Source: Escherichia coli
Lineage (GTDB): Bacteria > Pseudomonadota > Gammaproteobacteria > Enterobacterales > Enterobacteriaceae
Reading direction: 5' to 3' (one strand)
Length of the DNA: 64,000 nt
NCBI RefSeq assembly: GCF_016903815.1
Contig: NZ_CP069973.1
Shown here piece after piece: positions 45,272 to 52,686 of the stretch. Within the stretch, counting starts at the first letter, position 1, and each line of letters opens with the position of its first letter. Below the pieces are notes generated by a model. It saw only the letters and a list, made by a program, of their open reading frames with translations. It did not search any database and was not told the origin of the DNA. Both the position numbers and the translations under genes were made by a program.

Positions 45272-45543
45272 GTATTCGTATTGAAATTGGCGAACGTTAT
45301 GTCGTTACCAGTGACAGCTTTCAGTTTATTCTCCACGAGAAAAAGAGAGCTGAAAGCGGTAAAAACGCCGGTCAGGAATGGCTGGCGGTGGTTGGTTATT
45401 ACCCGAAATTAAGCCAGCTTGTTTCCGGCCTGATGCATCACGATATTCTGACCGGAAGCGCAAAGTCTTTTGCTGATTTAAACGCGCAGGTTGAGCAACT
45501 CAGCAAGCGTTGTTCAGAGGCTTTTGGCTCATATGGCCGTTAA
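45268..45543 (+). CDS. P2 orf83-like hypothetical protein
   Basis: 91-aa ORF preceding A. Confidence 0.7.
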   Translation: MSIRIEIGERYVVTSDSFQFILHEKKRAESGKNAGQEWLAVVGYYPKLSQLVSGLMHHDILTGSAKSFADLNAQVEQLSKRCSEAFGSYGR

Positions 45544-47821
45544 AGCCTCCGGGCGTTTTGTCCCTCCGTCAGCATTTGCCGCAGGCACCGGTGAGACGTT
45601 TACCGGTGCTTATGCATGGAACGCGCCACGCGAGGCCGTCGGGCGCGAAAGACCCCTTACACGTGACGAGATGCGTCAGGTGCAAGGTGTTTTATCCACG
45701 ATTAATCGCCTGCCTTACTTTTTGCGCTCGCTGTTTACTTCACGCTATGACTACATCCGGCGCAATAAAAGCCCGGTGCACGGGTTTTATTTCCTCACAT
45801 CCACTTTTCAGCGCCGTTTATGGCCGCGTATTGAGCGCGTGAATCAGCGCCATGAAATGAACACCGACGCGTCGTTGCTGTTTCTGGCAGAGCGTGACCA
45901 TTATGCGCGTCTGCCGGGGATGAATGACAAGGAGCTGAAAAAGTTTGCTGCCCGTATCTCATCGCAGCTTTTCATGATGTATGAGGAACTCAGCGATGCC
46001 TGGGTGGATGCGCATGGCGAAAAAGAATCGCTGTTTACGGATGAGGCGCAGGCTCACCTCTATGGTCATGTTGCTGGCGCTGCACGTGCTTTCAATATTT
46101 CCCCGCTCTACTGGAAAAAATACCGTAAAGGACAGATGACCACGAGGCAGGCATTTTCTGCTATTGCCCGCCTGTTTAACGATGAGTGGTGGATTAGCCA
46201 GCTTAAAGGCCAGCGTATGCGCTGGCATGAGGCGTTACTGATTGCTGTCGGGGAGGTCAATAAAGACCGTTCTCCTTATGCCAGTAAACATGCCATTCGT
46301 GATGTGCGTGCGCGCCGCCAGGCAAATCTGGAATTTCTTAAATCGTGTGACCTTGAAAACAGGGAAACCGGCGAGCGCATCGACCTTATCAGTAAGGTGA
46401 TGGGCAGTATTTCTAATCCTGAAATTCGCCGGATGGAGCTGATGAACACCATTGCCGGTATTGAGCGTTACGCCGCCGCAGAGGGTGATGTGGGGATGTT
46501 TATCACGCTGACCGCGCCGTCAAAGTATCACCCGACTCGTCAGGTCAGAAAAGGCGAAAGTAAAACCGTTCAGCTTAATCACGGCTGGAACGATGAGGCA
46601 TTTAATCCAAAGGATGCGCAGCGTTATCTCTGCCGCATCTGGAGCCTGATGCGCACGGCATTCAAGGATAATGATTTACAGGTCTACGGTTTGCGTGTCG
46701 TCGAGCCACACCACGACGGAACGCCGCACTGGCATATGATGCTTTTTTGTAATCCACGCCAGCGTAACCAGATTATCGAAATCATGCGTCGCTATGCGCT
46801 CAAAGAGGATGGTGACGAAAGAGGAGCCGCGCGAAACCGTTTTCAGGCAAAGCACCTTAACCGGGGCGGTGCTGCGGGATATATCGCGAAATACATTTCA
46901 AAAAATATCGACGGCTATGCACTGGATGGTCAGCTCGATAACGATACCGGTAAGCCGCTTAAAGATACTGCCGCGGCTGTTACCGCATGGGCGTCAACGT
47001 GGCGCATCCCGCAATTTAAAACGGTTGGACTGCCGACAATGGGGGCTTACCGTGAACTACGCAAATTGCCTCGCGGCGTCAGTATTGCTGATGAGTTTGA
47101 CGAACGCGTCGAGGCTGCTCGCGCTGCCGCAGACAGTGGTGATTTTGCGTTGTATATCAGCGCGCAGGGTGGGGCAAATGTCCCGCGCGATTGTCAGACT
47201 GTCAGGGTTGCCCGTAGCCCGTCGGATGACGTTAACGAGTACGAGGAAGAAGTCGAGAGAGTGGTCGGCATTTACGCGCCGCATCTCGGCGCGCGTCATA
47301 TTCATATCACCAGAACGACGGACTGGCGCATTGTGCCGAAAGTTCCGGTCGTTGAGCCTTTGACTTTAAAAAGCGGCATCGCCGCGCCTCGGAGTCCTGT
47401 CAATAACTGTGGAAAACTCACCGATGGTGATACTTCGTTACCGGCTCCCACACCTTCTGAGCACGCCGCAGCAGTGCTTAATCTGGTTGATGACGGTGTT
47501 ATCGAATGGAGTGACCCGGAGGTCGTGAGGGCGCTCAGAGGTGCATTAAAACACGGTCGGAGAACGCCAAATCGTCAGCAAAGAAACGGAAGCCCGTTAA
47601 AACCACATGAAATTGCACCATCGGCCAGACTGGCCCGGTCGGAAAGAATGCAAATTACCCGTATCCGCGTTGACCTTGCTCAGAACGGTATCAAGCCGCA
47701 GCGATGGGAGCTTGAGGCGCTGGCGCGTGGCGCGACCGTAAATTATGACGGGAAAAAATTCACGTATCCGGTCGCTGATGAGTGGTTCGGATTTCAAGAT
47801 GAAGTGTCATTTTTTATATAA
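45533..47821 (+). CDS. A: P2 replication initiation protein A (rolling-circle nickase)
   Basis: ~762 aa from MAVKASGRFVPPSAFAAG; HUH-type region (EPHHDGTPHWHMMLF) and catalytic tyrosine region (AGYIAKYISKN). Confidence 0.92.
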   Translation: MAVKASGRFVPPSAFAAGTGETFTGAYAWNAPREAVGRERPLTRDEMRQVQGVLSTINRLPYFLRSLFTSRYDYIRRNKSPVHGFYFLTSTFQRRLWPRIERVNQRHEMNTDASLLFLAERDHYARLPGMNDKELKKFAARISSQLFMMYEELSDAWVDAHGEKESLFTDEAQAHLYGHVAGAARAFNISPLYWKKYRKGQMTTRQAFSAIARLFNDEWWISQLKGQRMRWHEALLIAVGEVNKDRSPYASKHAIRDVRARRQANLEFLKSCDLENRETGERIDLISKVMGSISNPEIRRMELMNTIAGIERYAAAEGDVGMFITLTAPSKYHPTRQVRKGESKTVQLNHGWNDEAFNPKDAQRYLCRIWSLMRTAFKDNDLQVYGLRVVEPHHDGTPHWHMMLFCNPRQRNQIIEIMRRYALKEDGDERGAARNRFQAKHLNRGGAAGYIAKYISKNIDGYALDGQLDNDTGKPLKDTAAAVTAWASTWRIPQFKTVGLPTMGAYRELRKLPRGVSIADEFDERVEAARAAADSGDFALYISAQGGANVPRDCQTVRVARSPSDDVNEYEEEVERVVGIYAPHLGARHIHITRTTDWRIVPKVPVVEPLTLKSGIAAPRSPVNNCGKLTDGDTSLPAPTPSEHAAAVLNLVDDGVIEWSDPEVVRALRGALKHGRRTPNRQQRNGSPLKPHEIAPSARLARSERMQITRIRVDLAQNGIKPQRWELEALARGATVNYDGKKFTYPVADEWFGFQDEVSFFI

Positions 47822-48039
47822 AAAACGTTAAAATTCAATGCAATGAAGGCATGGAGGAGGTCGCTTTAATATGTTTTATGTTTAATATTTATTAATTGTT
47901 TATTTAATATAAAAAAATATTATATATAGGGAGATCAAATACAACGGTTTACTTGTTATGATGCAAACATTGGTTAGTTAGTGAGATACATCGCCATCAA
48001 TTGGGTAACTTTACCCGTGGAAAGTTAACGCTTTCTAAC

Positions 48040-48225
48040 ATTTACCCCGCGCAACGCCCCTGCCAGCGACAAGAGTCACAGGATCAGGCGGTATGGCGTA
48101 TGGGTATTCGAACCCTTTGGGCGACCAAGGGTTCGTGGAGCAGGGGGCTAGTGCTGTTCAATCTCATCCTTATGAGGGCGAACCATAGTGTTGGAGCAGG
48201 CATATCGTTTGCACACTATGGGCAT
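48040..48225 (+). ncRNA. candidate structured ncRNA (possible retron msr/msd or other regulatory RNA)
   Basis: GC-rich island in AT-rich cargo with several stems: cgcccctgc/gcagggg (48054-48147), cgaaccctt/aagggttcg (48107-48134), ccatagtg/cactatgg (48183-48221); immediately upstream of the HTH-RT genes. Confidence 0.3.
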
Positions 48226-48237
48226 AAGGAGCAAATC

Positions 48238-48393
48238 ATGAAGAATGATAAATTAACCAACGAACAGCAGGCGCAGAACAAGTCAAACCTGAAAAAGTGG
48301 GCTGGTTATGTTTGGAAATTAATCAAATGGGGTATTAGACTGTTTGATTTAGCCACTCGAGCACTGGACTACTTTGAAGGGGGTGATGAGTAA
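48238..48393 (+). CDS. small 51-aa protein, amphipathic (hypothetical)
   Basis: ATG with AAGGAG RBS 6-7 nt upstream; MKNDKLTNEQQAQNKSNLKKWAGYVWKLIKWGIRLFDLATRALDYFEGGDE; may instead be untranslated RNA. Confidence 0.35.
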   Translation: MKNDKLTNEQQAQNKSNLKKWAGYVWKLIKWGIRLFDLATRALDYFEGGDE

Positions 48394-48429
48394 TGCGTCC
48401 TCCCTAGTTTCAATAGCATGGAGTTGCCT

Positions 48430-48750
48430 ATGTTACACAGAGCCCTTCGTTTAATAAGGCAATACCATAAAGAGTCATTGGTTGATTTATCAACATCTTT
48501 AGGTATTCCAAAAGAAAAAATAGTAGAACTCGAAAGTGGGGTTTGGTCGCCTACAATTGATGTTTTACAGCGTTACGCCTCCCATTTCGATATGCCGGTA
48601 TCTTCTTTAGTATTTTTTTCAGAATCGTTAGGTACGCAGGGGCGTTTATCTAAGCGTTTCCGTTTAAATTTAGCTGGTAAAGTATTAGATGTTATTGAGT
48701 GGGCGAATAAGAAAAATGAAAAGACGAATAAAACTCAAAATTTCCACTAA
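48430..48750 (+). CDS. XRE/Cro-type helix-turn-helix protein, putative partner of the RT
   Basis: 106 aa from MLHRALRLIRQYHKESLVDLSTSLGIPKEKIVELESGVWSPTIDVLQRYASHFDMPVSSLVFF (HTH_XRE-like pattern); GGAG RBS; 3' end overlaps the RT start. Confidence 0.6.
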   Translation: MLHRALRLIRQYHKESLVDLSTSLGIPKEKIVELESGVWSPTIDVLQRYASHFDMPVSSLVFFSESLGTQGRLSKRFRLNLAGKVLDVIEWANKKNEKTNKTQNFH

Positions 48751-49666
48751 AAATAAATCTTACGATATAATTGATTCGCCGTTTTATAAAATGAGAAGTA
48801 AAAGGAAATTGGCTTCTTTATTGGGGGTTGATGTAGGGGATTTATCAACCTTAAAAAAAGATGAAGGCAATTATTCTATTTTTGAACAGTTATCTAAAAA
48901 CGGAAAGCCACGTAAGATACAAAAACCATTAGAAAAATTAGATGTGGTGCATACTCGTATTGCAAGTCTGCTATCGCGAATTACTTTGCCAGATTATCTA
49001 CATTCTGGAAAGAAGGGATGTTCTAATGTTACTAATGCTAAAATCCACCTTAATAATGAAAGGTTGATGACAACCGACATCAGGGCTTTTTTTCCATCAA
49101 CTACCAGAGAAATGATATTTTCATTCTTTTTTTCTGTTATGAAGATGTCATCTGATGTTGCGGATGTATTATCGTATATATGTACTTGCTATGGGCGTTT
49201 GCCTACAGGTAGCAGGATTAGTATGCCTCTTGCATATTTTGCAAATTCCAGAATGTTCGGAGAAATACACCAACTTTGTAATAAACTACACGTAAATATG
49301 TCTGTTTATGTTGATGATCTAACTTTTTCAGGACAAAACGTTAATAGACTATTTTGTTCAGTGATTCGCAAAATAATAAATAAGCATGGTCATGTGATGC
49401 ATGCGGATAAAACAAAAATTTATAGTAGAGAAAAGCCTAAGTTGGTAACAGGTGTTATTGTTTTGGGCGGTTCTTTAAAAGTCAGGAATAAGCAGCATCT
49501 TTTAATGTCTCAAGAAATTGAATATTGGAAAATGATAAAGGATGCAGCGTGTGCAAGAGAAACTCATACTGCCAAAAAGTTATTTGGACGATTGCATTCT
49601 ATGGGGGTAATTGAACAACGTTATAGATCAAAGGTGCTTACATTAAAAGCAAGTACTGCACTTTAA
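48716..49666 (+). CDS. retron-type reverse transcriptase
   Basis: RT motifs visible: DIRAFFPS (motif A), YVDDLTFSG (motif C), retron-typical NAxxH (NAKIH) and VTG (KLVTGVIVLGG); ~316 aa; start codon uncertain (48689, 48716 or 48791). Confidence 0.8.
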   Translation: MKRRIKLKISTKNKSYDIIDSPFYKMRSKRKLASLLGVDVGDLSTLKKDEGNYSIFEQLSKNGKPRKIQKPLEKLDVVHTRIASLLSRITLPDYLHSGKKGCSNVTNAKIHLNNERLMTTDIRAFFPSTTREMIFSFFFSVMKMSSDVADVLSYICTCYGRLPTGSRISMPLAYFANSRMFGEIHQLCNKLHVNMSVYVDDLTFSGQNVNRLFCSVIRKIINKHGHVMHADKTKIYSREKPKLVTGVIVLGGSLKVRNKQHLLMSQEIEYWKMIKDAACARETHTAKKLFGRLHSMGVIEQRYRSKVLTLKASTAL

Positions 49667-49774
49667 TACAGGTTTCTGTAAGTGATTATATTGTTCTTAA
49701 GATACTTACTGATGTTATTTCCCCGTAGCCTTAATTTCTGCGGGGAAGTATGGAGATATTTTGGTTATGGAATG

Positions 49775-51139
49775 CTAATTTTTTAATGTGTATTTTTCTG
49801 TGATTAGTTTCATTGTTCTTTCCAATCCTAAATATACAGTGGCATCAGTAATATTGAGCACGGCAAGTTCTTTTAAAATTTTCTTTTTGTCTCTGATGTT
49901 TATTTTTTCTGTCTTAAAATTGTATGGTGAATTATCTGCCTGATCGTTGGATATCTCAGGAAAAACGGCGTTATTACCGAATAATAAAAAGGCACCGGAT
50001 TGAGATGATATTCTTTCATTATTTATTCTGCTTTTTACAAAAATTATTTTTTCCAAATCCTCTGGATTTATTATGCTTTTAAAATATGGTTTTTCATGCT
50101 TTATGGATTCTAAGAGTTTAAGGCAAGCATGAGAGCTGTTAAAATCATTATTTCTTTCTTCGAAAGAAAGCTTGTCTTTCATGTCTTTTGATAGCATGCA
50201 TAAATTAGATATGCAACTGACAGTGTCGGAATCGAAAAATTTAATGTTCTCTCTGTGTGTTTTAAATATTATTACTTGACCATCGATATCGTTTTTGTCG
50301 GAATTTATACTACTGCATGCAAAATAAAGTGCAATTAATGGATTTGATGTGATGTCAAGTAAGCGAGTAGGTATGCCATAATGTTGCATTCTTACAAGTT
50401 TATCAAGCATTGATGTATCATCAATGAATTCTGAGGGTCTTGCGCTCAATGCTTCTTTAACAAGGTTGATTTCATTATGTAGAAATTTATAGTTCCCATT
50501 TTCATATTTTCTGAAAAGAGATGGTGCAAGTTCATAAGATGAATCTGAATGACCCCTGTAAAAAATCTCCTCATCCATATCTGCTGTTATATGGAGAACT
50601 TTTTCAATAAATTCTTGTAAACTATTTACGGTTAATAATGTGCTATCTTCGTCTGGGAGAGGCGCTGGACTGCTATCCACTTGTGCATTTTGGTTAATAC
50701 CAAATGTCTTAAGGATATCATCTATATTTTTGTCTTTTATGGCCCAGTGTGTTCTTTTAAGGCCATAAGTTCCGAGTTCTAAACTGCTTTCAACACTTTT
50801 GGCGTCTGATATTTTGATTTCATTGTGTGTATGGGTGATTGCAAATTGGAAGTTGATTTCTTTTCCCTTAATGTGAATATTTGAAATTCTTCCAATTCGT
50901 ATGTCGACATAATAAGGTTTTGCTCCCTCTATTTGATAAGCTTCACTCATGAATATTGTTGGGAGTTTTTCAAGATAAGATAGTACATTACTGCTTAATG
51001 GGGATAGTTTTTTACGAATACCATCGGAGGTGTTTTCAAACATTCGTGATAAAAGAAATGAGAATTCTCCATTATTTTGGCTGAATGGTTTCCAGTGGTC
51101 GTAGTGGTCGGGAAAACCACCCATAATTAAATTAATCAT
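49775..51139 (-). CDS. FRG-domain-like protein (C-terminal FRG-type motifs, uncharacterised N-terminal domain); candidate defense gene
   Basis: 454-aa AT-rich ORF convergent with the RT; motifs FYRGHSDSSYELAPSLFR and RMQHYGIPTRLLDITSNPLIALYFA. Confidence 0.6.
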   Translation of the reverse strand: MINLIMGGFPDHYDHWKPFSQNNGEFSFLLSRMFENTSDGIRKKLSPLSSNVLSYLEKLPTIFMSEAYQIEGAKPYYVDIRIGRISNIHIKGKEINFQFAITHTHNEIKISDAKSVESSLELGTYGLKRTHWAIKDKNIDDILKTFGINQNAQVDSSPAPLPDEDSTLLTVNSLQEFIEKVLHITADMDEEIFYRGHSDSSYELAPSLFRKYENGNYKFLHNEINLVKEALSARPSEFIDDTSMLDKLVRMQHYGIPTRLLDITSNPLIALYFACSSINSDKNDIDGQVIIFKTHRENIKFFDSDTVSCISNLCMLSKDMKDKLSFEERNNDFNSSHACLKLLESIKHEKPYFKSIINPEDLEKIIFVKSRINNERISSQSGAFLLFGNNAVFPEISNDQADNSPYNFKTEKINIRDKKKILKELAVLNITDATVYLGLERTMKLITEKYTLKN

Positions 51140-51463
51140 AATTACCTGTTCATCTGACGTAGGTGTAGGAATGCTTGTTGTTTGTTATGGTAATGTTAAC
51201 GCTTGTTGGTGGCAACTACTATTACTACTTGCTGTTAGAGCTAAGACATTTTTTGATTGCTTGTAATGATAGCGAGCCTTTAACTAACTGGGATTTTGAA
51301 AAAATAAATGAATTGTCAATTTCCTGAGATTTTTATTACTGCATTCATTAAGTGCATTTTTTTGCGTGTGTTAGTTGCCATGCTTTTCCATGTTTGTTAT
51401 CAGTGTTGATGCGGTTACTGTGTTTTAATGCAATTGCATTAAAAGCGCCCTATGAAGCGGGCG

Positions 51464-51482
51464 GGCGAGGCGGGGAAAGCAC
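51464..51482. other. P2-type cos site (19-nt cohesive end sequence)
   Basis: ggcgaggcggggaaagcac, matching the P2 cohesive end as I recall it; lies between the cargo island and the Q portal gene. Confidence 0.6.
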
Positions 51483-51651
51483 TGCGCGCTGGCGGTGGTG
51501 CTGATTTTATTTTTTCAGCGTCTCAGCGCGTCGTGACGGCGCTTAGTCTGCCCGTTGAGGCGTTGGTGTGTCTGCGGGGGGTTTTGTGCGGTGGTGAGCG
51601 TGTGAGGGCGTGATGGCGGGTTGTAAAAAAGCCGCCCGCAGGCGGCGATGT

Positions 51652-52686
51652 TCAGCCGTTGTCAGTGTCCAGTGAGTAGTTTTTAAAGCGGATGACCTCC
51701 TGACCGAGCCAGCCGTTTATTTCCCGAATCCTGTCCTGTAACGGGATAAGCTCATTGCGGACAAAGACCTTTGCCACTTTCTCAATATCACCCAACGACC
51801 CGACGTTCTCCGGCTTGCCGCCCATCAACTGAAAAGGGATGCGGTGCGCGTCCAGCAGGTCAGCGGCGCTGGCTTTTTTGATATTAAAAAAATCGTCCTT
51901 CGTTGCTACTTCACTGAGCGGGATAATTTTAATGCCGTCAGCTTTCCCCTGCGGGGCATAGAGAAACAGGTTTTTAAAGTTGTTGCGGCCTTTCGACTTC
52001 ACCATGTTTTCGCGAAGCATTTCGATATCGTTGCGATCCTGCACGGCATCAGTGACGTACATGATGTATCCGGCATGAGCGCCGTTTTCGTAATACTTGC
52101 GGCGGAACAGCGTGGCCGACTCATTCAGCCAGGCAGAGTTAAGGGCGCTGAGATATTCCGGCAGGCCGTACAGCTCCTGATTAATATCCGGCTCCAGCAG
52201 GTGAAACACGGAACCGGGCGCGAAGGCTGTCGGCTCGTTGAAGGACGGCACCCACCAGTAAACATCCTCCTCCACGCCACGGCGGGTATATTTTGCCGGT
52301 GAGATTTCCAGTCTGATGACCTTACCGGTGGTGCTGTAACGCTTTTCCAGAAATGCATTACCGAACACCAGAAAATCCAGCACAAAGCGGCTGAAATCCT
52401 GCTGGGAAAGCCACGGATGCGGGATAAATGTCGAGGCCAGAATATTACGTTTGACGTAAATCGGTGAGCTGTGATGCACGGCAGCACGCAGGCTTTTTGC
52501 CAGACCGGTAAAGCTGACCGGTGGCTCATACCATCTGCCGTTACTGATGCACTCAACGTAATCCAGAATGTCACGGCGGTCGAGTACCGGCACCGGCTCA
52601 CCAAAGGTGAATGCCTCCATTTTCGGGGCGCTGGCGGTCATTGTTTTTGCCGCAGGTTGCGGTGTTTTCCCTTTTTTCTTGCTCAT
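51652..52686 (-). CDS. Q: P2 portal protein gpQ
   Basis: 344-aa ORF MSKKKGKTPQPAAKTMTASAPKMEAFTFGEPVPVLDRRDILDY; adjacent to cos and P. Confidence 0.9.
   Translation of the reverse strand: MSKKKGKTPQPAAKTMTASAPKMEAFTFGEPVPVLDRRDILDYVECISNGRWYEPPVSFTGLAKSLRAAVHHSSPIYVKRNILASTFIPHPWLSQQDFSRFVLDFLVFGNAFLEKRYSTTGKVIRLEISPAKYTRRGVEEDVYWWVPSFNEPTAFAPGSVFHLLEPDINQELYGLPEYLSALNSAWLNESATLFRRKYYENGAHAGYIMYVTDAVQDRNDIEMLRENMVKSKGRNNFKNLFLYAPQGKADGIKIIPLSEVATKDDFFNIKKASAADLLDAHRIPFQLMGGKPENVGSLGDIEKVAKVFVRNELIPLQDRIREINGWLGQEVIRFKNYSLDTDNG

What the first reader, a model, noticed from the sequence alone, without database searches (positions are those of the whole stretch)
48040..48225. GC-rich, multi-hairpin noncoding island upstream of the HTH-RT pair: candidate template/regulatory RNA
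Inside the AT-rich cargo there is a ~190-bp segment of opposite composition with several nested or adjacent stems: cgcccctgc (48054) pairing with gcagggg (48141); cgaaccctt/aagggttcg (48107-48134); ctcat/atgag (48153-48167); ccatagtg/cactatgg (48183-48221). Coding sequence would not normally conserve this much secondary structure. The position, downstream of an AT-rich promoter-like stretch (47830-47960) and upstream of the RT operon, is where a retron msr/msd or a DRT-type template ncRNA would be expected. The six-frame ORF 48001-48393 through this region is probably not a real protein over its 5' part.
Basis: seen in the sequence. Interest (0 to 1): 0.65.

Follow-up and report, generated by a model that had tools for sequence, protein, structure and literature searches.

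The report
Type VI retron template/regulatory RNA

Summary
Bases 48040-48225 are a GC-rich (0.54 against 0.26-0.40 in the flanks), strongly folded, non-coding stretch. It is only the middle of a longer RNA, about 47969-48415.

The genes that follow are a 51-aa small protein (SP, 48238-48393), a helix-turn-helix protein (PADLOC HTH_VI, 7e-30) and a reverse transcriptase (RT_VI, 1e-105). That is the signature of a Type VI retron. It sits in the cargo hotspot of a P2-like prophage, between gene A and cos.

The RNA aligns motif for motif with Retron-Vpa2, whose "hybrid RNA" was characterised in a 2025 preprint. The shared parts are:
- two small 5' hairpins;
- a long hairpin with a hypervariable top (the msd template candidate);
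- a hairpin whose loop carries GGGCGAC, repeated as GGGCGAA in the riboregulator;
- an anti-Shine-Dalgarno helix that sequesters the SP ribosome site;
- long-range helices that tie the SP coding sequence and its 3' flank back to the core.

Covariation is strong. Across 25 homologs, 93% of cells are paired against 83% in shuffles, and 49 pairs change on both sides. A model built from enteric sequences alone finds one site in the window and every held-out distant homolog, where 97% are paired and 30 of 32 pairs are compensatory.

This is a known kind.

The parts
47954..47962 (+). Candidate extended -10 promoter (TGtTATGAT). Predicted RNA 5' end near 47969.
   Evidence: TGnTATGAT is conserved in the P2-borne homologs (alignments). 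The consensus scan found no -35/-10 pair, so this is an inference. Zhang et al. state that the native promoter of Type VI retrons is constitutive.
47969..48415 (+). Whole predicted hybrid RNA (hyRNA): msr-msd-like non-coding part plus the SP coding sequence and its 3' flank.
   Evidence: Conservation begins about 47969 and ends after GTTTCAA at 48413. MFE z = -4.79. The length of about 447 nt compares with about 470 nt for the Vpa2 hyRNA.
47982..47987 (+). P1 5' strand (UGAGAU), the a1-like inverted repeat.
   Evidence: Pairs with 48161-48166. 95.3% of cells are paired, and A-U changes to G-C in 8 of 25 homologs.
48003..48035 (+). Two small 5' hairpins (msr-like): P2 GGGUA/UACCC (48003-07 / 48012-16) and P3 GAAAGU/GCUUUC (48020-25 / 48030-35).
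   Evidence: P2 is 95.1% paired, with 4 of 5 pairs changed on both sides. P3 is 99.3% paired, with 3 of 6.
48043..48106 (+). P4, a long hairpin with a conserved base and a hypervariable top: the candidate msd (reverse-transcription template).
   Evidence: All 25 homologs fold this interval into a single hairpin of 52-116 nt, although the sequence and length of the top differ. The base pairs covary (helices 4-5). In Vpa2 the msDNA maps to the long stem-loop.
48109..48135 (+). P5 hairpin CGAACCCUU/AAGGGUUCG. Its loop carries direct repeat 1, GGGCGAC (48119-48125). It probably templates the 5' stem-loop of the full-length msDNA.
   Evidence: 100% paired, with 9 of 9 pairs changed on both sides in held-out homologs. 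The repeat is conserved. Zhang et al. describe a 23-nt rightward extension and a 7-nt repeat in an msd loop.
48136..48147 (+). P6 5' strand (UGGAGCAGGGGG), pairing with 48400-48412 downstream of the SP stop.
   Evidence: An 11-12 bp duplex of -13 to -19 kcal/mol forms in all 25 homologs. GGGAG/CUCCC changes to GGGGG/CCCCC, and UGGAGC/GUUUCA changes to UCGAGAC/GUUUCGA.
48152..48159 (+). P7 5' strand (UGCUGUUC), pairing with SP codons at 48262-48269 (GAACAGCA).
   Evidence: 97.5% paired. One pair is seen as U-A, G-C and A-U (16/4/4) and another as C-G and U-A.
48161..48166 (+). P1 3' strand (AUCUCA), the a2-like repeat.
   Evidence: See P1. It crosses P6 and P7, so it is either a pseudoknot or an alternative fold.
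48167..48174 (+). Anti-Shine-Dalgarno strand of P8 (UCCUUAUG).
   Evidence: Pairs with CAUAAGGA at 48223-48230. The helix is in the MFE of 22 of 25 homologs folded separately. It is 96.2% paired, with 8 of 8 pairs changed on both sides in held-out homologs.
48176..48182 (+). Direct repeat 2 (GGGCGAA), in the internal loop between P8 and P9.
   Evidence: Nearly invariant. In Vpa2 both repeats read GGACGAA, and in L038 both read GGCGAG. This matches the repeat that Zhang et al. propose as the msDNA docking site.
48183..48221 (+). P9 hairpin (CCAUAGUGU/ACACUAUGG with inner GCAGGC/GUUUGC), directly upstream of the SP ribosome site.
   Evidence: 13 of 15 pairs are changed on both sides in held-out homologs.
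48223..48231 (+). SP ribosome-binding region: P8 3' strand CAUAAGGA (48223-30) and SD AAGGAG (48226-31).
   Evidence: Read from the sequence. Pairing evidence as for P8.
48238..48393 (+). SP gene (51 aa, MKNDKLTNEQQAQ...YFEGGDE): the predicted toxic effector, embedded in the RNA.
   Evidence: An intact 47-55 aa ORF is present in 25 of 25 homologs, with a third-position excess. It matches phrog_15287 over its full length, 3e-39. RefSeq annotates it as WP_001754918.1. The Vpa2 SP is toxic.
48270..48275 (+). P11 5' strand (GGCGCA), pairing with 48394-48399 (UGCGUC) and closing the arm that holds the rest of the SP coding sequence.
   Evidence: 96% paired, with 5 of 6 pairs changed on both sides (G-C/A-U 15/9 and 13/11).
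48394..48412 (+). 3' flank of the SP gene: 3' strands of P11 (48394-99) and P6 (48400-12, CUCCCUAGUUUCA).
   Evidence: Highly conserved although non-coding. Pairing evidence as above.
48430..48750 (+). HTH protein gene (RefSeq start 48430; the open frame begins at 48418).
   Evidence: PADLOC HTH_VI 7.2e-30. RefSeq WP_016239054.1.
48716..49666 (+). Retron reverse transcriptase gene (RefSeq start 48716; the open frame begins at 48689). It overlaps the HTH gene.
   Evidence: PADLOC RT_VI 1.1e-105, next best RT_III-A 5e-45. A YVDD motif is in the translation. It is 54% identical to P0078, the RT encoded at the locus whose SP is that of Vpa2.

Best explanation
The island is the non-coding core of a Type VI retron hybrid RNA.

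Shown here by sequence analysis:
- One RNA of about 450 nt starts just downstream of an extended -10 element near 47957.
- It holds two small msr-like hairpins and a long hypervariable hairpin followed by a second hairpin. Together these two are the predicted template (msd, about 48043-48135).
- It holds a riboregulator in which UCCUUAUG pairs with the Shine-Dalgarno region of the 51-aa SP gene.
- It holds the SP coding sequence itself. Helices P6, P7 and P11 tie that coding sequence and its 3' flank back to the core.

Inferred by homology to Retron-Vpa2, not tested here:
- The RT and the HTH protein bind this RNA.
- In uninfected cells reverse transcription is held down and msDNA is degraded, so the toxic SP is not translated.
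- On infection, phage recombination or anti-RecBCD proteins let msDNA accumulate.
- The 5' stem-loop of the msDNA is copied from P5 and carries the complement of GGGCGAC. It docks on the GGGCGAA loop of the riboregulator and opens the anti-SD helix.
- SP is then made and the cell stops growing before the phage spreads.
For: Gene signature:
- PADLOC RT_VI 1.1e-105 and HTH_VI 7.2e-30.
- A conserved 51-aa ORF sits between the RNA and the HTH gene in every homolog.
- Close relatives of the RT (WP_000746343.1, WP_001461245.1) are listed in the published Type VI tree, in the 'Large' clade. The paper's text places Vpa2 in that clade.
- Locus L037 encodes the Vpa2 SP, and its upstream RNA aligns with the window motif for motif.

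Structure:
- z = -4.79 for the full RNA.
- On 25 homologs, 93.1% of cells are paired against 83.3% in shuffles, 49 of 86 pairs change on both sides against 30.8, and 0 of 500 shuffles reach any measure. Slid controls reach at most 48%.
- A covariance model built only from 16 enteric sequences hits the 64-kb window once (154.5 bits). It hits every held-out distant homolog (E from 3e-19 to 8e-10) and none of about 58 unrelated metagenome loci.
- On those held-out sequences 97.1% of cells are paired against 65.6% in shuffles, and 30 of 32 pairs are compensatory.
- The anti-SD:SD helix appears in separate MFE folds of 22 of 25 homologs.
- The long hairpin is single and variable in 25 of 25 homologs.
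- Both 7-nt repeats are present and change together in Vpa2 and L038.

Published mechanism for the family. Retron-Eco12 from E. coli defends against lambda-vir.
Against: - Nothing about transcription, msDNA or toxicity was measured for this locus.
- I could not obtain the Eco12 sequence, so identity with it is unproven.
- Another Type VI retron, Sen3, makes ssDNA and SP constitutively and is controlled after translation. The Vpa2 mechanism is therefore not universal within the type.
- P1 (a1/a2-like) crosses P6 and P7, so not all helices need coexist.
- P1 and P6 rest on few independent substitution events.
- The priming site and the branching G were not identified.
- No sigma-70 consensus promoter or terminator was found by the scan.
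Confidence: 0.88

Rival explanations
1. Same Type VI retron, but working as Retron-Sen3 does. The RNA templates ssDNA constitutively and SP is made constitutively. The HTH protein neutralises SP as a protein antitoxin, and loss of RecBCD activity triggers release. The anti-SD helix would then only tune expression.
For: [quoted passage not shown] The HTH gene is adjacent and overlaps the RT gene here. Mutating the HTH protein is also toxic in Vpa2.
Against: Sen3 belongs to the cl2075 lineage, with a 79-aa SP. This locus has a 51-aa SP, and its RT relatives sit in the 'Large' clade with Vpa2. Eco12, the tested E. coli member, gave no detectable msDNA at baseline. The SD-sequestering helix and both 7-nt repeats are conserved with compensatory changes.
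Confidence: 0.1
2. A purely cis-acting leader or riboregulator of the SP-HTH-RT operon that is not used as a template for reverse transcription.
For: The anti-SD:SD helix alone would explain part of the conservation. No msDNA has been seen on gels for several Type VI retrons at baseline.
Against: The long hairpin with a hypervariable top and conserved base, and the conserved P5 hairpin, have no role in SD sequestration. In the Vpa2 homolog, RT-dependent DNA maps to exactly this hairpin.
Confidence: 0.015
3. The region is the N-terminal part of a real 130-aa protein (ORF 48001-48393), or it is the template RNA of a DRT/UG-type defence RT rather than of a retron.
For: The ORF is open in this sequence. 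phrog_5826 (97 aa) matches the SP only over its last 51 positions, so longer ORFs have been called elsewhere. There is a weak Drt3a match (E = 0.0037, 16.6 bits against a cut-off of 200).
Against: Homologs carry indels that break the frame, and there is no codon periodicity upstream of 48238. The 130-aa product has no PADLOC match. RT_VI scores 350.9 bits, far above any non-retron model.
Confidence: 0.005

Closest known systems
Retron-Vpa2 hybrid RNA (hyRNA), Type VI retron of Vibrio parahaemolyticus (Zhang et al., bioRxiv 10.1101/2025.10.22.683967)
   Same: - Same operon order: RNA, SP, HTH, RT.
- The RT is 54% identical to the one at the Vpa2-type locus L037.
- Same RNA architecture: small 5' hairpins, a long template hairpin, a second hairpin with a 7-nt repeat in its loop, RBS and start codon inside stem-loops, and a 3' flank annealing back to the first arm.
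- A model built without Vpa2 finds the Vpa2 RNA at 68.9 bits.
   Different: - Host and carrier differ: an E. coli P2-like prophage hotspot.
- The SP is 51 aa rather than 55, with little sequence identity outside the QQ and GGD(E/T) motifs.
- The top of the template hairpin is unrelated in sequence.
- The repeats read GGGCGA(C/A) rather than GGACGAA.
- No experiment has been done on this locus.
Retron-Eco12 (E. coli Type VI retron tested in the same preprint)
   Same: It is from E. coli and is described as phylogenetically related to Vpa2. It gave no msDNA at baseline and defends against lambda-vir. This locus or its 81-84% relatives occur in 99 of 5426 complete E. coli genomes.
   Different: The Eco12 sequence or accession is not in the text I could read. 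Identity with this locus is therefore possible but unverified.
Retron-Sen3 ncRNA (Type VI, cl2075 lineage; Garcia-Rodriguez et al., bioRxiv 10.64898/2026.04.27.721009)
   Same: It has a structured ncRNA within about 280 nt upstream of SP, a long internal stem-loop with a non-conserved centre, the SP RBS sequestered in a stem, a long-range inverted repeat reaching downstream of the SP stop, and covariation inside the SP coding sequence.
   Different: It belongs to a different RT subclade and SP cluster (79-aa SP). Its ssDNA and SP are constitutive, its control is post-translational, and its trigger is loss of RecBCD.
Canonical retron msr-msd RNAs (e.g. Retron-Eco1/Ec86)
   Same: The RNA lies upstream of a retron-clade RT. 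It has short msr-like hairpins, then a long msd hairpin, and a short inverted repeat (P1) that brackets them.
   Different: - No Rfam family matches.
- The effector gene lies inside the RNA.
- P1 is only 6 bp and lies 25 nt from the predicted template end.
- In the published Type VI model the msDNA activates the toxin rather than neutralising it.

Membership tests
Type VI retron (Mestre et al. 2020 classification, as used by PADLOC) | RT belongs to the Type VI retron RT clade. | tested here: met
   RT_VI 1.1e-105, 350.9 bits, full-length. The next best is RT_III-A at 151.8 bits. Relatives at 81% and 62% identity are labelled Type VI 'Large' in the published tree.
Type VI retron (Mestre et al. 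2020 classification, as used by PADLOC) | Cro/C1-type HTH protein gene immediately upstream of, or overlapping, the RT gene. | tested here: met
   HTH_VI 7.2e-30, covering profile positions 1-91 of 92. The gene ends at 48750 and the RT gene starts at 48716.
Type VI retron (Mestre et al. 2020 classification, as used by PADLOC) | Small accessory protein (SP) gene upstream of the HTH gene (SP-HTH-RT order). | tested here: met
   A 51-aa ORF at 48238-48393 with SD AAGGAG. It is intact in 25 of 25 homologs and matches phrog_15287 at 3e-39.
Type VI retron hybrid RNA (hyRNA) as defined for Retron-Vpa2 | Structured RNA upstream of SP with a long stem-loop that serves as the msd. | tested here: met
   In silico only. 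There is a single hairpin of 52-116 nt in 25 of 25 homologs, with a covarying base. Template use was not tested.
Type VI retron hybrid RNA (hyRNA) as defined for Retron-Vpa2 | SP ribosome-binding site and start codon sequestered in stem-loops. | tested here: met
   The RBS is met: P8 anti-SD:SD is 96.2% paired, with 8 of 8 pairs compensatory, and is in 22 of 25 separate MFE folds. The start-codon hairpin P10 is weaker, at 76-82% paired.
Type VI retron hybrid RNA (hyRNA) as defined for Retron-Vpa2 | The 3' end beyond the SP stop anneals back to the first arm through inverted repeats, and the arms are closed by conserved helices. | tested here: met
   P6 (48136-47 / 48400-12), P7 (48152-59 / 48262-69) and P11 (48270-75 / 48394-99) are 94.5-97.5% paired and show compensatory changes.
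Type VI retron hybrid RNA (hyRNA) as defined for Retron-Vpa2 | Two conserved 7-nt direct repeats, one in an msd loop and one in a riboregulator loop. | tested here: met
   GGGCGAC at 48119-25 in the P5 loop and GGGCGAA at 48176-82 in the loop between P8 and P9.
Type VI retron hybrid RNA (hyRNA) as defined for Retron-Vpa2 | One contiguous, abundant transcript covering msr-msd and SP, bound by the RT and the HTH protein. | not testable with these tools
   Needs RNA-seq and pull-downs.
Type VI retron hybrid RNA (hyRNA) as defined for Retron-Vpa2 | RT-dependent msDNA from the long hairpin, needed for SP translation and for phage defence. | not testable with these tools
   Needs experiments. The YVDD catalytic motif is present.
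Canonical retron msr-msd (Rfam-curated retron RNAs) | Match to a curated retron msr covariance model. | tested here: not met
   No Rfam 15 family matches 47000-52000 at E <= 10 other than four chance-level hits elsewhere.
Canonical retron msr-msd (Rfam-curated retron RNAs) | a1/a2 inverted repeats that directly flank msr-msd, with a branching G at the end of a1. | tested here: inconclusive
   A 6-bp repeat (P1) brackets the region and covaries. However, it lies 25 nt from the predicted template end and crosses P6 and P7. An invariant G at 47993 is only a candidate branch point.
DRT / UG-type defence RT with template ncRNA | RT of a UG/DRT class. | tested here: not met
   The best DRT model, Drt3a, scores 16.6 bits against a cut-off of 200. 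Retron models score up to 350.9 bits.

The most novel reading that the evidence does not exclude
The RNA may be a true two-state switch. The segment 48161-48176 can form P1 (a1/a2-like) plus the anti-SD helix P8, which gives the off state. Alternatively it can fold on itself as the ctcat/atgag hairpin. That would free both the 5' repeat and the ribosome site. P1 also crosses P6 and P7. If reverse transcription or msDNA docking selects between these folds, priming and toxin translation would be coupled through one 16-nt segment. Neither preprint text I read describes this. I could not see their figures.
Probability: 0.2. Interest if true: 0.5.

Novelty: already known. Interest (0 to 1): 0.27.

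Why it matters
The finding gives a function to an unannotated 270-nt stretch and to a "hypothetical" 51-aa gene. About 2% of complete E. coli genomes carry them (99 of 5426), as do sequenced P2-like phages such as Peduovirus P22H1 and Klebsiella phage ST147-VIM1phi7.1. Neither Rfam nor RefSeq marks the RNA.

It also shows that the Vpa2-type hybrid-RNA architecture holds, with compensatory changes, across Enterobacterales, Vibrio, Aeromonas and relatives. The anti-Shine-Dalgarno helix and the paired 7-nt repeats are part of that conserved architecture. This supports the published idea that these retrons use msDNA to switch on a toxin.

For the scan itself, it is a positive control: a reader working from sequence alone correctly spotted a retron template RNA.

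Tried and rejected
- Rfam search of 47000-52000 at E <= 10 gave nothing relevant.
- ARAGORN found no tRNA or tmRNA, despite the T-arm-like TTCGAACC.
- The consensus scan found no promoter or terminator on the + strand. The promoter call therefore rests on a conserved extended -10 only.
- The genome contigs peptide scan returned only 3 loci because the patterns were too specific.
Only 2 were true homologs by nhmmer. The remainder later served as negative controls.
- RNAalifold on a plain MAFFT alignment mis-registered P5 and missed P8. Separate folds of each sequence and a covariance model were needed.
- The MFE pairing 48002-10 / 48422-30 (5' region with the HTH start) is not conserved. The local hairpin P2 is conserved instead.
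- The Eco12 sequence was not recoverable from the papers or supplements.
- The window's own RT accession, WP_023148839, is not in the published tree. Only its relatives are.

Full report
**Observation**

Bases 48040-48225 stand out in composition. The 48000-48199 window is 0.535 GC, against 0.26 just upstream and about 0.29-0.42 downstream. The segment folds better than shuffles: -74.7 kcal/mol, z = -2.83.

It carries no Rfam family and no tRNA.

The long open frame 48001-48393 is not a gene over its 5' part:
- Homologs differ here by indels that are not multiples of three.
- Variation shows no codon periodicity upstream of 48238 (32/39/45). The last 51 codons show a third-position excess (43/34/63).
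- RefSeq annotates only a 156-nt gene at the equivalent of 48238-48393 in identical and related loci.

**Context**

Downstream lie three genes:
- a 51-aa ORF with a strong AAGGAG ribosome site (48238-48393);
- an HTH protein (PADLOC HTH_VI, 7.2e-30);
- a reverse transcriptase that overlaps the HTH gene (PADLOC RT_VI, 1.1e-105; next best RT_III-A at 5e-45; a YVDD motif is present).

NCBIfam retron models match only below their cut-offs, and the Drt3a match is negligible. This is the SP-HTH-RT signature of Type VI retrons.

The cassette sits between the P2-type replication gene A (45491-47821) and an exact P2 cos sequence at 51464-51482, ahead of the portal gene. That the 19-mer is the P2 cohesive end is from my own knowledge. 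The cassette is therefore cargo of a P2-like prophage.

The same DNA is in 99 of 5426 complete E. coli genomes: 59 at 99% identity or more, the rest at about 75-84%. It is also in Peduovirus P22H1 (99.8%) and in Klebsiella P2-like phages (85%).

**Literature**

Two preprints describe exactly this kind of element.

Zhang et al. (10.1101/2025.10.22.683967) show the following for Retron-Vpa2:
- The msr-msd region and the SP coding sequence form one abundant "hybrid RNA" of about 470 nt with three arms.
- The SP ribosome site and start codon sit in stem-loops.
- The 3' end anneals back to the first arm.
- msDNA is undetectable at baseline and accumulates on triggering by phage recombination proteins.
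- msDNA, and specifically its 5' stem-loop, is needed to derepress translation of the toxic SP.
- The authors point to two conserved 7-nt direct repeats, one in an msd loop and one in the riboregulator.
- An E. coli member, Retron-Eco12, defends against lambda-vir.

Garcia-Rodriguez et al. (10.64898/2026.04.27.721009) describe Retron-Sen3, from another Type VI lineage. It has a similar RNA but constitutive ssDNA and post-translational control.

The RTs of two loci I fetched (WP_000746343.1, 81% identical to the window's RT; WP_001461245.1, 62%) appear in their tree in the 'Large' Type VI clade. The paper's text places Vpa2 in that clade.

**Homologs**

I collected loci from several sources:
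- E. coli genomes and phage records;
- viral contigs;
- a genome scan;
- contigs encoding RTs at 54-71% identity from Yersinia, Serratia, Dickeya, Vibrio, Aliivibrio, Providencia, Xenorhabdus and Aeromonas.

Locus L037 encodes an SP that begins MSNNTQRDQQVNIIKPTKREKRQKQFKRFLKALSW. This is the Vpa2 SP as printed in the Sen3 paper. The window's upstream RNA aligns with L037 motif for motif.

The cassette also occurs outside P2 prophages, for example next to yeiP in E. coli C5. In the P2 hotspot it sits beside different neighbour genes.

**Anatomy**

The full-length fold of 47970-48432 gives -163.8 kcal/mol, z = -4.79. I parsed it and corrected it by comparison with homologs.

| Element | Coordinates | Notes |
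|---|---|---|
| P1 | 47982-87 with 48161-66 | a1/a2-like repeat |
| P2 | 48003-07 / 48012-16 | small hairpin |
| P3 | 48020-25 / 48030-35 | small hairpin |
| P4 | 48043-48106 | long hairpin; conserved base, top varies in sequence and length (52-116 nt); one hairpin in all 25 homologs |
| P5 | 48109-17 / 48127-35 | loop carries GGGCGAC |
| P6 | 48136-47 with 48400-12 | reaches beyond the SP stop |
| P7 | 48152-59 with 48262-69 | 3' strand is the (E/D/N)QQ codons of SP |
| P8 | 48167-74 (UCCUUAUG) with 48223-30 (CAUAAGGA) | covers the Shine-Dalgarno sequence |
| Repeat 2 | 48176-82 (GGGCGAA) | in the loop between P8 and P9 |
| P9 | 48183-48221 | two-tier hairpin |
| P10 | 48235-39 / 48245-49 | weak hairpin over the start codon |
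| P11 | 48270-75 with 48394-99 | closes the rest of the SP coding sequence |

This is the three-arm architecture described for Vpa2.

**Tests of the structure**

- *25 homologs.* The structure is 93.1% paired against 83.3% in column shuffles. 49 of 86 pairs change on both sides against 30.8 expected. No shuffle of 500 reaches any of the five measures. Sliding the partners by 1-3 columns drops pairing to 39-48%.
- *Held-out test.* To avoid circularity I built a covariance model from 16 enteric sequences only, covering 48105-48234 with P5, P8 and P9. It hits the 64-kb window once (154.5 bits). It finds every held-out distant homolog, Vpa2 included, at E from 3e-19 to 8e-10. It gives weak hits upstream of RTs at 43-44% identity. 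It gives none in about 58 unrelated metagenome loci.
- *Pair counts on held-out sequences.* 97.1% of cells are paired against 65.6% shuffled, and 30 of 32 pairs show compensatory changes. The slid controls reach at most 50%. This alignment is fitted to the model's structure, which favours it.
- *Separate folds.* Folding each of the 25 homologs on its own recovers P5 and P9 in essentially all, and P8 in 22 of 25.

- cgaaccctt/aagggttcg (P5) and ccatagtg/cactatgg (P9) are confirmed.
- ctcat/atgag lies at 48163-67 / 48172-76, not at 48153-67. It shows some covariation (84.6% paired, 0/500). It shares bases with both P1 and P8, so it can only be an alternative fold.
- cccctgc/gcagggg (48057-63 / 48140-46) is no better than shuffles. 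It conflicts with P4 and P6.

**Mechanism**

Shown here:
- the Type VI gene set;
- a conserved, compensated RNA structure spanning the non-coding region and the SP gene;
- sequestration of the SP ribosome site;
- a variable template-like hairpin;
- the paired repeats, which change together in Vpa2 (both GGACGAA) and in L038 (both GGCGAG).

Inferred by homology:
- The RT copies P4 plus P5 into msDNA.
- msDNA is kept low in uninfected cells.
- Phage recombination or anti-RecBCD proteins let msDNA accumulate.
- The complement of repeat 1 on the msDNA docks on repeat 2 and opens P8.
- SP is translated and arrests the cell.

The Sen3-type alternative (constitutive SP and ssDNA, with the HTH protein as antitoxin) cannot be excluded without experiments. 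It is less likely for this lineage.

**Open points**

- P1 crosses P6 and P7, so it is either a pseudoknot or an alternative state.
- P1 and P6 rest on few independent substitutions.
- The priming site and the branching G are unidentified. An invariant G at 47993 is a candidate only.
- The promoter call rests on a conserved TGnTATGAT, with no consensus -35.
- I could not check whether this locus is Eco12 itself.

**Verdict**

The element is a member of a kind described in 2025-2026 preprints, so its novelty is low. Its value is in annotation and as independent comparative support for the published RNA model.

Noticed in passing
window 49775-51139 (- strand): A 454-aa FRG-domain protein (Pfam FRG 5e-21; PADLOC candidate system PDC-S15, 9e-98; phrog_4962) lies convergent with the retron in the same P2 cargo hotspot. 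It is probably a second, independent defence gene. Residues 1-167 match nothing.
   Followed up: partly
window 51464-51482: An exact copy of the P2 cohesive-end sequence GGCGAGGCGGGGAAAGCAC lies inside the GC-rich, strongly GC-skewed stretch 51400-51650. The retron and the FRG gene therefore sit between gene A and cos of a P2-like prophage.
   Followed up: yes
L001, L003, L004, L033, L034 against window 47822-51650: The RNA-SP-HTH-RT cassette travels as a unit. In the P2 hotspot it sits beside different neighbours: small hypotheticals in O157:H7, a 266-aa protein in strain 65COLEC, and an HNH protein in Serratia. It also occurs outside P2 prophages, next to yeiP in E. coli C5 and at chromosomal sites in Dickeya and Vibrio.
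   Followed up: partly
window 47982-87 / 48161-76 / 48223-30: The segment 48161-48176 has three mutually exclusive partners: the 5' repeat (P1), the Shine-Dalgarno region (P8), and itself (the ctcat/atgag hairpin). Positions 47984, 48164 and 48175 change together in part of the homologs. P1 also crosses P6 and P7. This could be a conformational switch.
   Followed up: partly
window 48262-48269 and 48270-48275: The conserved (E/D/N)QQ(A/V) motif near the SP N-terminus is encoded by bases that form the 3' strand of P7 and the 5' strand of P11. These codons covary with non-coding partners (UGCUGUUC/GAACAGCA, UGCUGGUU/AACCAGCA, UGCUGAUC/GAUCAGCA). Part of the peptide conservation may therefore reflect RNA structure.
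   Followed up: partly
window 48001-48393; phrog_5826: PHROG family 5826 (97 aa) matches the SP only over its last 51 positions. Some phage annotations have evidently called an over-long ORF running through the non-coding RNA, like ORF 48001-48393 here.
   Followed up: no
window 48689-48716 and 48418-48430: The mechanical ORFs start earlier than the RefSeq gene models: RT at 48689 against 48716, HTH at 48418 against 48430. Homologous RTs are almost all 316 aa, which favours the later starts.
   Followed up: partly
L194, L195, L196 (viral contigs; RT 43-44% identical): The covariance model built from enteric sequences gives weak full-length hits (23.6-32.8 bits) upstream of much more distant Type VI-like RTs. 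The P5/P8/P9 core may extend to further lineages.
   Followed up: no
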